Shown one piece after another: positions 22,653-24,567 of a DNA stretch of 35,797 nt (its first letter is position 1; the number at the start of each line of letters is the position of its first letter). This stretch comes from a virus (lineage: Duplodnaviria > Heunggongvirae > Uroviricota > Caudoviricetes). The stretch is from the IMG/VR virus record IMGVR_UViG_2563366950_000001; one strand, given 5' to 3'. Below the pieces are notes generated by a model, which worked only from the letters and a program-made list of their open reading frames with translations, made no database searches and was not told where the DNA came from. A program made the translations under genes and the position numbers.

Positions 22653-24088
22653 GCACAAAATTTTATACCCTGCTGACGGATATTGGCGCGGCGAAACTTG
22701 CCAGCGCCGCCGCGCTCGGTGTGCCGCTAAAAATTACCCATATGGCGGTGGGCGATGGCGGCGGAGTATTGCCAACGCCGGACGCAAAGCAGACGGCACT
22801 GGTAAATGAGAAACGCCGGGCTGCGCTGAATATGCTCTATATCGACCCGCAGAACAGCAGCCAGATTATTGCTGAACAGGTGATCCCTGAAAACGAGGGC
22901 GGTTGGTGGATACGTGAAGTGGGCCTGTTTGATGAATCCGGGGCATTGATTGCCGTGGGCAACTGCCCGGAAAGCTATAAGCCGCAACTGGCTGAAGGCA
23001 GCGGGCGCACCCAGACCGTGCGCATGGTGCTGATTACCAGCAGCACGGACAATATCACCCTGAAAATCGATCCTGCCATAGTACTGGCAACCCGCAAGTA
23101 TGTGGATGACAAGGCACTGGAGCTGAAGGTGTACGTGGATGATCAGATGGCAAAACATCTTGCCGCACCGGACCCGCATTCACAGTACGCGCCAAAAGCC
23201 AGCCCGACATTTACCGGAACCCCCAAAGCGCCAACGCCAGCGGCGGGGAATAATACCACGCAGGTTGCGACCACTGCGTTTGTACAGGCGGCACTGACGG
23301 CCCTTATTAATGGTGCGCCAGCCACGCTGGACACGCTGAAAGAAATAGCCGCAGCCATTAACAATGATCCGAATTTCAGCACCACCATTAACAATGCGCT
23401 GGCACTCAAAGCGCCGCTGTCGAGTCCGGCACTCACCGGAACGCCAACAGCCCCCACGGCGGCGCAGTCGGTCAACAATACACAGATTGCCACTACGGCT
23501 TTTGTGAAATCGGCGATTGCAGGAATGGTGGGTTCTGCACCTGCGGCACTGGATACGCTGAACGAACTGGCGGCGGCGCTGGGGAATGACCCGAACTTTG
23601 CCACGACAATGCTTAATGCGCTGGCAGGTAAACAACCGCTGGACAATACGCTGAATAATTTGAGTGGAAAGGATGTAGAAGGAATTCTTACTTATCTTGG
23701 TTTGGGGCATTTGGGAAATGCGGCAGGTAGAAATGTTGGTAATGCTAATAGTTATGAAATCCCTGACATGAGCTATTTTCAGCTAACAGGAAAAGGAAGC
23801 GATAATTTGTTGGTTAAAGGTCCGAATGGTTTAATTATACAAATATTTCGAAGAAATCTTCCTAATAGTACAACTATTGGTATTCCACAACAGCTTGCTA
23901 TTACATATCCAACGCCATTCCCTAACGGAGTATGGGGTGTGTTTGTCACAAAAATGACATATGCACAAGTCGTTACGTCGTGCGAAAGTATATATAATGA
24001 TGGCTTTACTGCTGTAACTTGTTTGACATCAGGAACCAGTAGTGATTCAAAAGTTTCAAGCGCTGTATTTATTGCATTTGGATATTAA
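22649..24088 (+). CDS. H: tail fibre protein gpH
   Basis: 479 aa; conserved N-terminal part, internal ~74-aa tandem repeat, and an AT-rich divergent C-terminal receptor-binding part. Confidence 0.9.
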   Translation: MSTKFYTLLTDIGAAKLASAAALGVPLKITHMAVGDGGGVLPTPDAKQTALVNEKRRAALNMLYIDPQNSSQIIAEQVIPENEGGWWIREVGLFDESGALIAVGNCPESYKPQLAEGSGRTQTVRMVLITSSTDNITLKIDPAIVLATRKYVDDKALELKVYVDDQMAKHLAAPDPHSQYAPKASPTFTGTPKAPTPAAGNNTTQVATTAFVQAALTALINGAPATLDTLKEIAAAINNDPNFSTTINNALALKAPLSSPALTGTPTAPTAAQSVNNTQIATTAFVKSAIAGMVGSAPAALDTLNELAAALGNDPNFATTMLNALAGKQPLDNTLNNLSGKDVEGILTYLGLGHLGNAAGRNVGNANSYEIPDMSYFQLTGKGSDNLLVKGPNGLIIQIFRRNLPNSTTIGIPQQLAITYPTPFPNGVWGVFVTKMTYAQVVTSCESIYNDGFTAVTCLTSGTSSDSKVSSAVFIAFGY

Positions 24089-24090
24089 AT

Positions 24091-24567
24091 ATGAAAAGTT
24101 ATGATGATTATCAACATGATTCTTCTTATGGTTTTATATGGGATAAGGTAAATGCCAGATTTATGGCGTATATATTAAAAAATGAATATGAAAGAAATAG
24201 AATGTGGCCTAAGGAAGGGGTGGATATTTCAAATGAGACTGCTTGTGAATTCATGAAACAACCTCCGGAAGGAAAAATTCTTGGGGCAGATGATAATGGT
24301 ATGCCTGCATGGATTGATATGCCACCACTCACATATACAGAGTTAGTGGCTAAAGCAAAAACTGAAAAACAAGCACGTATAATAGAAGCTGTAAATTATA
24401 TAAATAACAAACAATGGCAGGGGAAAGCATTGCTTGGGAGACTGAATGATACTGAACTGAAAATGTATAATATATGGCTTGATTATATTGAAGCATTAGA
24501 GGCCATTGATCCATCAAAAGCCTCTGATACAGCCTTTCCGACTAAGCCATTTAACGATTCAGTCTGA
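24091..24567 (+). CDS. G: tail fibre assembly chaperone gpG
   Basis: 158 aa, directly after H; AT-rich like the H C-terminus. Confidence 0.8.
   Translation: MKSYDDYQHDSSYGFIWDKVNARFMAYILKNEYERNRMWPKEGVDISNETACEFMKQPPEGKILGADDNGMPAWIDMPPLTYTELVAKAKTEKQARIIEAVNYINNKQWQGKALLGRLNDTELKMYNIWLDYIEALEAIDPSKASDTAFPTKPFNDSV

What the first reader, a model, noticed from the sequence alone, without database searches (positions are those of the whole stretch)
23640..24567. Composition shift at the tail-fibre tip and chaperone: a swapped host-range cassette
The 5' two-thirds of H looks like the rest of the late region, but from about 23640 through G the sequence becomes markedly AT-rich, and this continues into the adjacent acyltransferase gene. 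That pattern is expected for a horizontally exchanged receptor-binding domain plus its matched chaperone. The receptor is probably different from that of P2.
Basis: seen in the sequence. Interest (0 to 1): 0.4.

Follow-up and report, generated by a model that had tools for sequence, protein, structure and literature searches.

The report
Swapped tail-fibre tip, chaperone and neaT block
In the P2-like prophage of uropathogenic E. coli CFT073, a sharply AT-rich 2-kb block holds the receptor-binding tip of the tail fibre, its folding chaperone and the already published virulence gene neaT; it is a real but fairly ordinary case of phages exchanging host-range parts at fixed junctions.

Summary
GC falls from 0.57 to 0.32 between 23646 and 25685, the lowest-GC 2-kb stretch in the window (z about -22), mostly at third codon positions (GC3 0.22-0.29 against 0.61-0.65). 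The window is E. coli CFT073 prophage phi-b0847. The block holds the last ~147 codons of tail-fibre gene H, the chaperone (yfdK) and, convergent, the acyltransferase neaT, a published bacteremia fitness gene already known to be AT-rich. Similarity of H to P2 H stops at residue 332 (nt 23644), and the chaperone is unrelated to P2 G. Similarity to the closest P2-like phages stops at 23706, inside a relic 26-bp DNA-invertase crossover site (23685-23710) whose core encodes LGLG. Relatives of the tip (54-75% identity) begin exactly there, fused to at least four unrelated fibre shafts and often inside invertible segments. The window has one degenerate site and no invertase, so the cassette is locked. 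The right edge (25691-25701) abuts the late-promoter activator dyad. The predicted tip fold resembles the lectin-like foot of R-pyocin fibres. The tip-chaperone-neaT set recurs on Mu-type and divergent P2-like backbones; a Citrobacter remnant keeps only chaperone fragment plus neaT. Verdict: interpretation supported; a new member of a known kind; modest interest.

The parts
22649..23644 (+). Conserved N-terminal and shaft part of tail-fibre gene H (residues 1-332), the backbone part
   Evidence: Pfam Phage_tail_fib 1-150. 53% identity to P2 H over residues 1-332. 96-97% nucleotide identity to phage 500465-1 and FDN-9. GC3 0.61.
23646..23696 (+). Junction zone encoding NTLNNLSGKDVEGILTY: still backbone-like but AT-shifted
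   Evidence: Identity to 500465-1 and FDN-9 falls from 0.96-0.97 to 0.80. GC is 0.33 here against 0.43-0.51 in relatives, and the differences from the relatives are towards A/T. The maximum-likelihood GC breakpoint is 23646.
23685..23710 (+). Relic of a Din-family (Gin/Cin/Pin/Hin-type) invertase crossover site, TTCTTACTTATC TT GGTTTGGGGCAT; the core CTTGGTTTGGG encodes LGLG
   Evidence: It aligns with the true inverted sites of phage 500465-1 (L002 7037 and 8868), which flank tip/tfa/tfa'/tip' next to an invertase. Backbone similarity ends at 23706, and cassette-family similarity starts at 23694-23696. It scores only 13/20 against the consensus, and there is no second site in the window.
23697..24088 (+). 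Exchanged receptor-binding tip of H (about residues 350-479, Gp53-like_C domain)
   Evidence: Pfam PF21882 392-479. Relatives at 54-75% identity are fused to other shafts. The AlphaFold model (pLDDT 70-91 for residues 45-147 of the fragment) matches R1/R2 pyocin fibre feet 6CXB/6CL5/6CL6 and AP22 gp53 4MTM. GC 0.366, GC3 0.224.
24091..24567 (+). Tail-fibre assembly chaperone (Tfa; 'yfdK', c0969), partner of the tip
   Evidence: Pfam Caudo_TAP 1.8e-22. PHROG 188. No significant similarity to P2 G. Best relatives are 54-57% identical, or 66% for the Citrobacter fragment. GC 0.354, GC3 0.253.
24551..25582 (-). neaT (c0970): 343-aa membrane Acyl_transf_3 acyltransferase, a lysogenic-conversion moron in the P2 fun(Z) slot; its 3' end overlaps tfa by 17 nt
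   Evidence: Pfam PF01757 full length, 2.7e-40. PHROG 3333 O-acetyltransferase. 100% match to CFT073. Published as neaT (PMC3573123). P2 has fun(Z) on the minus strand in the same place. GC 0.298.
25583..25690 (-). AT-rich (GC 0.23) upstream region of neaT, the end of the low-GC block
   Evidence: GC 0.233. Wiles et al. complemented with neaT plus 211 bp of upstream sequence (PMC3573123). No strong sigma-70 consensus match was found on the minus strand.
25702..25721 (+). TTGT-N12-ACAA dyad, the putative Ogr-type activator site of the late promoter P_F for the sheath operon; backbone resumes here
   Evidence: Coordinates. P2's annotated P_F activator site reads TTGT-N12-CCAA at the same distance from the FI start (82.5 against 84.5 nt). 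114 other E. coli genomes share sequence from 25691-25701 onwards. An ogr/Delta gene lies at 32724-32942.

Best explanation
The AT-rich tract (23646-25685) is the content of the hypervariable slot that P2-like phages keep between the conserved shaft of tail-fibre gene H and the late promoter P_F of the sheath operon. Here the slot holds three things. (1) A receptor-binding tip, fused in frame to the H shaft at an LGLG motif that is the translated core of a DNA-invertase crossover site. (2) The Tfa chaperone that folds that tip. (3) The convergent acyltransferase gene neaT, expressed from its own upstream region in the lysogen. The tip and chaperone belong to a pool of cassettes that in related P2-like and Mu-type phages sit in Gin/Cin/Pin-type invertible segments. 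The CFT073 prophage has only one degenerate site, no second tip and no invertase, so it carries a single locked specificity. The slot content was most likely exchanged by recombination between the conserved flanks: on the left, the shaft repeat ...ALGNDPNFATTMLNALAGKQP plus the crossover site; on the right, the P_F region. What is shown: the composition break, the mosaic junctions, the family relationships, the fold resemblance and the recurrence of the gene set. What is inferred: that the tip sets host range by binding a surface carbohydrate, that Tfa is its cognate chaperone, that exchange was by homologous rather than invertase-mediated recombination, and that the three genes moved together.
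For: GC break and codon-position signature. P2 H similarity ends at residue 332, and Tfa is unrelated to P2 G. Similarity to phage 500465-1 covers 20001-23706 and 25795-29000 only. In that phage the gap is filled by tip+tfa+tfa'+tip'+invertase flanked by inverted 26-27-nt sites. E. coli FDN-9 breaks similarity at the same two points (23704 and 25701) but carries a different tip, Tfa and acyltransferase, which is direct evidence of whole-slot replacement. Prophages of MS8345, 204446 and NC101 have the same P_F type with an empty moron slot. Tip relatives start at the LGLG/crossover site on four kinds of shaft. C. youngae L019 has a related tip in a full invertible segment of a P2-like phage, with the invertase where neaT sits here. 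The tip model matches R-pyocin and AP22 fibre receptor-binding feet, and more weakly H-type lectins; R-pyocin feet bind core LPS (PMC6363177 abstract). Evidence for linkage of the three genes: uniform low GC3; a 17-nt convergent overlap of tfa and neaT; a Citrobacter remnant collinear from mid-tfa through neaT into the tube gene as one 2986-nt alignment; the same set on a Mu-type baseplate in L022, with tip 54%, Tfa 57% and NeaT 61%; and the same set in a divergent P2-like contig, L038.
Against: Relatives of the tip/Tfa cassette have GC 0.43-0.50, so low GC is not inherited from any known member of the pool, and no donor was found: the best tip relative outside the near-identical (97-100%) copies is 75%, the best Tfa 57-66% and the best NeaT 76%. 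In L022 the tip and Tfa are 0.46-0.50 GC while the acyltransferase is 0.32. The three genes therefore do not always share composition, which weakens the single-import reading. Identity to the Citrobacter remnant varies from 56% to 94.5% along the alignment, so that locus is itself mosaic. A convergent acyltransferase after a Tfa gene also occurs with unrelated Tfa types (L029, L031, L032, L034), so the adjacency could simply reflect a permissive end-of-operon site. The junction zone 23646-23696 is backbone-like but AT-shifted, so the exact crossover point is not resolved. No experiment on adsorption, receptor or phage viability is available.
Confidence: 0.75

Rival explanations
1. There were two independent events. 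A tip+Tfa cassette swap took place at the crossover-site junction, and neaT was separately inserted as a single-gene moron into the fun(Z) slot. The shared low GC is coincidental or was acquired afterwards.
For: Wiles et al. treat neaT as a single-gene moron (PMC3573123). NeaT-like genes are AT-rich (0.30-0.37) whatever their flanks. In L022 the neighbouring tip and Tfa are 0.46-0.50 GC. Empty-slot prophages and prophages with a different acyltransferase exist. Acyltransferases follow unrelated Tfa types elsewhere.
Against: There is no GC-normal spacer between tfa and neaT, and the genes overlap by 17 nt. The same junction is kept in Citrobacter with a 4-nt overlap. The same-type gene set occurs on two further backbones at comparable divergence. 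All 9 complete E. coli genomes with any part of the block have all of it.
Confidence: 0.3
2. The AT-richness is not a donor signature but a maintained property. AT-biased evolution, or selection (for example for H-NS-type silencing of a lysogen-expressed accessory region), acts on neaT and has spread over the adjacent tip and Tfa. Composition therefore says little about when or from where the block came.
For: Wiles et al. report that neaT homologues stay AT-rich even in low-GC genomes (PMC3573123 abstract). The E. coli and Citrobacter copies are only 73-74% identical yet both keep GC of about 0.30-0.37. No low-GC donor was found in 5.8 billion proteins or in 185,579 species genomes. The junction zone 23646-23696 looks like backbone sequence mutated towards A/T.
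Against: The breakpoints are very sharp (within about 50 nt) and coincide with the ends of sequence homology, as expected for a recombination joint rather than for a diffuse mutational gradient. Relatives of the tip and Tfa elsewhere are not AT-rich.
Confidence: 0.3
3. The cassette was installed by invertase-mediated site-specific recombination at the 26-bp crossover site (in trans, between two phage genomes, or by deletion from a former invertible segment) rather than by homologous recombination in the flanks.
For: Both homology tracts meet inside the site. All shafts join the tip family at LGLG. Relatives carry invertases in the neighbouring position.
Against: The composition and identity drop begins about 40-50 nt upstream of the site centre. 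The right half-site is degenerate (GGTTTGGGGCAT against GGTTTGGGAGAA). There is no second site or invertase in the window. The right boundary at P_F has no such site.
Confidence: 0.2
4. The composition shift is chance, or a by-product of amino-acid composition.
For: neaT encodes a membrane protein rich in Ile/Phe/Leu/Tyr/Asn, and all three codon positions are low in GC (0.32/0.29/0.29).
Against: z = -22.5 and a log-likelihood gain of 167 nats. In the tip and Tfa the drop is concentrated at third positions (0.22-0.25 against 0.61-0.65).
Confidence: 0.02

Closest known systems
Bacteriophage P2 H-G-fun(Z)-P_F-FI region
   Same: Same gene order and orientation: fibre, chaperone, a minus-strand non-essential conversion gene, an activator site, then the sheath gene. 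The H N-terminus and shaft are 53% identical over residues 1-332. The dyad lies at the same distance from the sheath start.
   Different: The H C-terminal 147 residues and the chaperone are unrelated to P2's. H is 479 aa against 669. An acyltransferase replaces fun(Z). P2's horizontal fibre exchange was described by Haggard-Ljungquist et al. 1992 (title seen in the reference list of PMC13100340; the paper is not held in the library).
Invertible tail-fibre segments of the Mu G / P1 C / e14 P type, as seen here in Escherichia phage 500465-1 (Wadgaonvirus), C. youngae L019 and Mu-type prophages L006/L010
   Same: A crossover-type 26-mer lies at the constant/variable junction of the fibre gene, its core coding LGLG. 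The tip+Tfa unit belongs to the same cassette pool, with 54-75% tip identity.
   Different: There is only one, degenerate, site. There is no inverted alternative tip'/Tfa' and no invertase, and the acyltransferase occupies that space. The cassette cannot switch.
neaT of CFT073 prophage phi-b0847 (Wiles et al. 2013, PMC3573123)
   Same: It is the identical gene (c0970), with the same AT-richness (29.84% reported; 0.298 here) and the same 'moron position 2'.
   Different: The paper treats neaT alone as the foreign element and infers a recent, extra-phyletic acquisition. Here the low-GC tract also covers yfdK and the last third of H. A 76%-identical homologue sits in a collinear Citrobacter remnant, and homologues are linked to gp53-like tips and Tfa on other backbones.
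R-type pyocin tail-fibre foot domains (PDB 6CXB, 6CL5, 6CL6, 6CT8) and AP22 gp53 (4MTM)
   Same: The predicted beta-sandwich fold of the tip matches them (Foldseek E 7e-6 to 2e-4, probability 1.00, TM 0.48-0.57). Pfam Gp53-like_C also matches. These are C-terminal receptor-binding domains of P2-like contractile tails, and R-pyocin fibres bind core LPS (PMC6363177).
   Different: Sequence identity is only 15-19%. The model is a monomer of moderate confidence (mean pLDDT 73, and the first ~44 residues are poor). No PDB hit was found by sequence. The ligand is unknown.
Phage-borne O-antigen O-acetyltransferases (Sf6 Oac, phiV10)
   Same: Acyl_transf_3 membrane proteins carried as AT-rich morons in temperate phages. 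They are listed as neaT homologues by Wiles et al. (22-29% identity). PHROG 3333 'O-acetyltransferase' matches.
   Different: The substrate of NeaT is unknown. Wiles et al. found no change in lysozyme, polymyxin or serum sensitivity. The role of these enzymes in superinfection exclusion comes from my own knowledge and is not shown for NeaT.

Membership tests
P2-type tail fibre with exchangeable receptor-binding tip plus Tfa chaperone | N-terminal baseplate-attachment domain and shaft homologous to P2 H | tested here: met
   Phage_tail_fib 1-150, E 9e-65. 53% identity to P2 H over residues 1-332.
P2-type tail fibre with exchangeable receptor-binding tip plus Tfa chaperone | C-terminal part unrelated to the backbone's relatives and shared with other phage types (mosaic junction) | tested here: met
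   No similarity to P2 H after residue 332. Similarity to 500465-1 ends at 23706. The tip family occurs on four shaft types.
P2-type tail fibre with exchangeable receptor-binding tip plus Tfa chaperone | Caudo_TAP chaperone gene immediately downstream that co-varies with the tip | tested here: met
   Caudo_TAP 1.8e-22. A gene 2 nt downstream of H. Relatives always pair the tip with a Tfa. Co-variation is loose: tip 54-75% against Tfa 37-57%.
P2-type tail fibre with exchangeable receptor-binding tip plus Tfa chaperone | The tip binds the host receptor and sets host range | not testable with these tools
   Only the fold resemblance to R-pyocin and AP22 receptor-binding feet is available.
Din-invertase invertible tail-fibre segment (Mu G-segment type) | Two inverted crossover sites flanking the variable segment | tested here: not met
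   One degenerate site at 23685-23710 (13/20). No second site scores above background in the window. The repeat finder shows no matching inverted arm.
Din-invertase invertible tail-fibre segment (Mu G-segment type) | Adjacent serine invertase gene (Resolvase + HTH_7) | tested here: not met
   No such gene appears in the annotation of the whole window. Relatives have it.
Din-invertase invertible tail-fibre segment (Mu G-segment type) | Alternative inverted tip'/Tfa' pair | tested here: not met
   The minus strand of the slot holds only the acyltransferase.
Din-invertase invertible tail-fibre segment (Mu G-segment type) | Crossover site at the constant/variable junction of the fibre gene | tested here: met
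   Both homology tracts meet within 23694-23706. The site aligns with those of L002.
P2 'moron position 2' (fun(Z) slot) lysogenic-conversion gene | Lies between G/Tfa and FI, opposite in orientation to the late genes, variable among relatives, and atypical in composition | tested here: met
   Layout. Relatives have an empty slot, an invertase or another acyltransferase. GC 0.298.
P2 'moron position 2' (fun(Z) slot) lysogenic-conversion gene | Expressed from its own promoter in the lysogen and dispensable for the phage | not testable with these tools
   Wiles et al. detected transcripts in broth and complemented with 211 bp of upstream sequence (PMC3573123). The consensus scan found no strong minus-strand promoter.
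Acyl_transf_3 surface-polysaccharide O-acyltransferase | Full-length PF01757 membrane domain | tested here: met
   Residues 5-330 match profile positions 2-324 of 326, E 2.7e-40. 40 invariant columns, including H21 and H287, in 14 homologues.
Acyl_transf_3 surface-polysaccharide O-acyltransferase | Acylates a defined envelope glycan | not testable with these tools
   The substrate is unknown. The paper reports aggregation, swarming and macrophage-association phenotypes only.

The most novel reading that the evidence does not exclude
The tip, its chaperone and NeaT form one functionally coupled, mobile three-gene module: 'recognise a surface glycan and acylate that same glycan'. NeaT would modify the receptor bound by the lectin-like tip, protecting the lysogen from superinfection and progeny from re-adsorbing to debris. 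The bacteremia phenotype of neaT, and perhaps that of the overlapping yfdK deletion, would then be a by-product of this phage-receptor modification. The module moves as a unit between P2-like and Mu-type tails through the crossover-site/LGLG joint.
Probability: 0.25. Interest if true: 0.5.

Novelty: new member of a known kind. Interest (0 to 1): 0.3.

Why it matters
It gives a precise, sequence-level map of where a P2-like phage swaps host-range parts. The left joint is at a relic invertase site coding LGLG, and the right joint is at the late-promoter activator dyad. That map is directly usable for engineering P2/R-pyocin-type fibres with this lectin-like tip and its chaperone. It also revises the published picture of the CFT073 virulence gene neaT. 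neaT is not an isolated AT-rich gene but the end of a 2-kb AT-rich block that includes the fibre tip and yfdK. It has a 76%-identical counterpart kept in a decayed Citrobacter prophage at the same chromosomal site, and it is repeatedly linked to gp53-like tips. This suggests a testable substrate for NeaT (the phage's own receptor) and a simple explanation for the unexplained yfdK-deletion phenotype. None of this overturns current understanding.

Tried and rejected
1. A search for a second crossover site or an invertase in the window found none, so the block is not an active invertible segment.
2. A search for a donor failed at every level. The phage collection has no match to the block by blastn beyond the first ~70-130 nt. 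tblastn of the tip gives only 32-38% hits. The scan of 185,579 species genomes with tip peptides gave one weak, irrelevant hit (Mycoavidus). The 5.8-billion-protein searches gave nothing closer than 75% (tip), 76% (NeaT) and 57-66% (Tfa) outside the near-identical (97-100%) copies of the block.
3. A PDB sequence search of the tip gave nothing significant; the fold search was needed.
4. The promoter and terminator consensus scan of the block found fewer promoter-like sites than shuffles, none on the minus strand upstream of neaT, and no terminator between tfa and neaT.
5. Region 23646-23696 is not closer to the tip-bearing C. youngae phage than to the backbone (0.55 against 0.80). I therefore rejected the simple idea that it arrived with a cassette like L019's.
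6. L032 looked at first like another full gene set, but its fibre has no Gp53-like_C domain; the tblastn hit was to the N-terminal shaft.
7. The 1992 P2 fibre paper could not be read.
8. I did not check whether CFT073 encodes a Din invertase elsewhere, because one site cannot invert.
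Full report
**Identity of the window**

The low-GC block (23640-25700) and the promoter segment (25560-25800) match E. coli CFT073 (NC_004431.1) at 100% identity. The corresponding record stretch is 909332-945128. The window holds a complete P2-like prophage, from integrase to ogr, next to ybjL, ybjM and grxA. This is prophage phi-b0847 of Wiles et al. 2013 (PMC3573123).

**The observation**

- GC in 400-nt windows is 0.55-0.60 through the late genes. It falls to 0.26-0.39 from about 23600 to 25700 and then returns to 0.53-0.60.
- A two-breakpoint likelihood fit places the breaks at 23646 and 25685, with GC 0.567 | 0.322 | 0.552 and a gain of 167 nats.
- This is the lowest-GC 2-kb stretch of the window, z = -22.5 against the late region.
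The end coordinate (24567) covers less than half of the tract.
- By codon position, the tip of H, the chaperone and the acyltransferase have GC3 of 0.224, 0.253 and 0.288. The H shaft has 0.614 and the sheath gene 0.651. For the tip and chaperone this is a synonymous-site signature, not an amino-acid effect.

**Anatomy**

- H (22649-24088, 479 aa) has a Phage_tail_fib N-terminus and a Gp53-like_C C-terminus.
- A Caudo_TAP chaperone follows at 24091-24567.
- A 343-aa Acyl_transf_3 protein is encoded convergently at 24551-25582, overlapping the chaperone gene by 17 nt.
- A 108-nt stretch of GC 0.23 follows.
- Next comes a perfect TTGT-N12-ACAA dyad at 25702-25721, and the sheath gene starts at 25796.
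- P2 has the same plan: H, G, a terminator, minus-strand fun(Z), an annotated P_F activator site (TTGT-N12-CCAA) and FI. The dyad centre lies 82.5 nt before the FI start in P2 and 84.5 nt before the sheath start here.

**Left junction**

- H aligns with P2 H over residues 1-332 (53% identity) and stops at ...NALAGKQPLD, which is nt 23644.
- Against the nearest phage, Escherichia phage 500465-1 (Wadgaonvirus), nucleotide similarity runs 20001-23706 (96%) and 25795-29000 (98%), with nothing in between.
- In that phage the gap holds tip, tfa, inverted tfa', inverted tip' and a DNA invertase. These are flanked by inverted 26-27-nt repeats, TTCTCACATACCTTGGTTTGGGAGAA(G). From my own knowledge, these resemble Gin/Hin/Cin/Pin crossover sites.
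- The window keeps one similar 26-mer, TTCTTACTTATC TT GGTTTGGGGCAT, at 23685-23710. Its core is read as Leu-Gly-Leu-Gly.
- Similarity to the backbone ends inside this site, at 23706. Similarity to the cassette relatives begins inside it, at 23694-23696.
- Between the GC break and the site centre (23646-23696), the window is still backbone-like but only 80% identical, against 96-97% upstream, and the differences from the relatives are towards A/T. The joint is therefore a zone of about 60 nt that ends in the site.

**Right junction**

- 114 other complete E. coli genomes share the sheath-promoter region, starting at 25691-25701. Only 9 genomes, five of them CFT073 or identical, have the block itself.
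- Prophages with this promoter type carry either nothing in the slot (MS8345, 204446, NC101: tfa, about 135 nt, then sheath) or something else.
- E. coli FDN-9 breaks similarity at 23704 and 25701. Between these points it has another tip, another Tfa and an unrelated 377-aa acyltransferase. Whole-slot replacement between the same two boundaries is thus directly observed.

**The tip and chaperone family**

- The tip's relatives (54-75% identity) are short proteins from E. coli and Citrobacter.
- Their contexts are of four kinds:
  - Mu-type-baseplate prophages with an invertible segment and a Resolvase/HTH_7 invertase. There the tip is either fused to the constant part (226 aa) or lies promoterless in the inverted position (142 aa).
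  - A third kind of myovirus tail without an invertase.
  - A short metagenome contig (L020) with fibre, Tfa and a Resolvase gene.
  - A C. youngae P2-like phage with a full invertible segment, with its invertase where the window has the acyltransferase.
- In an alignment, one tip family is joined to four unrelated N-terminal parts, always at LGLG.
- These cassettes have GC 0.43-0.50. The window's 0.35-0.37 is unusual even within its family.
- The AlphaFold model of the tip (mean pLDDT 73; 70-91 for residues 45-147) is a beta-sandwich. Its best PDB matches are the feet of R1 and R2 pyocin fibres and AP22 gp53 (E 7e-6 to 2e-4), followed by H-type lectins.
- R-pyocin fibres bind core LPS through this region (PMC6363177). 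A carbohydrate receptor with a specificity different from P2's is therefore the reasonable inference. It is not shown.

**The acyltransferase**

- It is neaT (c0970). Wiles et al. showed that it promotes CFT073 fitness in bacteremia, lies in 'moron position 2', has 29.84% GC and is rare. They concluded that it was a recent, extra-phyletic, single-gene acquisition. The retrieved passages do not discuss the composition of yfdK or of the H 3' end.
- New here: its nearest relative (76% identity, found on many contigs) lies in a decayed P2-like remnant of Citrobacter freundii at the same ybjL-ybjM site.
- That remnant is collinear with window 24281-27248 as one 2986-nt alignment. Identity along it is 74% for the tfa 3' half, 73% for neaT, 56% for the AT-rich spacer, 70% for P_F, 83% for the sheath and 94.5% for the tube gene.
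- A 61%-identical homologue follows a gp53-like fibre (tip 54%) and a Tfa (57%) on a Mu-type baseplate (L022).
- A 35% homologue sits in the same slot of a divergent P2-like contig whose H also ends in Gp53-like_C (L038).
- Among 16 more distant viral loci with NeaT relatives, five have a convergent Tfa gene directly downstream, though of various types.
- NeaT-like genes are AT-rich everywhere (0.30-0.37) regardless of their flanks.

**Interpretation**

- The mechanism I think most likely is replacement of the whole slot by recombination in its conserved flanks.
- The slot content is drawn from the cassette pool that elsewhere is carried in invertible segments. Here it is locked, and the invertase/alternate-tip space is taken by neaT.
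- Whether the three genes came in together (uniform GC3, overlap, conserved linkage) or in two steps (composition differs in L022; acyltransferases follow many Tfa types) is not settled. I give the two-step rival 0.3.
- The cause of the AT-richness is also open. No low-GC donor was found in any collection, and the block stays AT-rich in two lineages that differ by about 26%. This fits a maintained property as well as it fits a foreign origin.

**Novelty**

Horizontal exchange of P2 fibre tips, invertible fibre segments, the fun(Z) moron slot and neaT's AT-richness are all known. What seems not to have been described:

- the extent of the tract into yfdK and H;
- the joint at a relic crossover site;
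- the Citrobacter counterpart;
- the recurrent tip-Tfa-NeaT set.

This is a new member of a known kind, of modest interest.

Noticed in passing
window 24551-24567: neaT and the chaperone gene (yfdK) overlap convergently by 17 nt. A whole-ORF yfdK deletion would remove NeaT's last five codons (LRLNR) and its stop codon. This might explain why the yfdK deletion mutant of Wiles et al. was attenuated like the neaT deletion mutant.
   Followed up: partly
window 8994-11354: A second low-GC island (GC 0.39) lies in the P2 old/tin hotspot between the replication gene and the portal gene. It holds three ORFs. The 383-aa one has a Hypoth_Ymh/TIGR02391 domain and matches PADLOC PD-Lambda-3_B (2.4e-14) and Aga_HEPN (2e-9), which makes it a candidate anti-phage defence gene. 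The 260-aa ORF has no family match.
   Followed up: partly
window 1119-2972: A third low-GC island (GC 0.36) lies next to the integrase. It holds a 323-aa minus-strand ORF with only a sub-threshold DUF2207_C match, and an unusually long (289 aa) CI repressor with two Phage_CI_repr HTH stretches plus Phage_CI_C.
   Followed up: partly
L014-L017 (Citrobacter freundii, ybjL-ybjM locus): A widely conserved prophage remnant keeps an intact neaT homologue (76% identity), while the sheath gene is broken into fragments and tfa is cut to 84 codons. This looks like retention (domestication) of the acyltransferase after the phage decayed.
   Followed up: partly
L013 3639-4772 (E. coli FDN-9 prophage at ybjL): An unrelated 377-aa acyltransferase (GC 0.36) occupies the same slot and orientation in a degraded sister prophage. 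This is a second independent capture of an acyltransferase at this position.
   Followed up: partly
L019 1-2255 (C. youngae) and L002 7037-9515 (phage 500465-1): Both are complete invertible fibre segments in P2-like phages, with tip, tfa, tfa', tip' and an invertase. In L019 both alternative tips are Gp53-like_C.
   Followed up: partly
L018 4989-6008 (Enterobacter hormaechei): A 58-59%-identical NeaT homologue (GC 0.32) lies next to a phage integrase, with no tail genes called nearby. This is a different kind of context for the gene.
   Followed up: no
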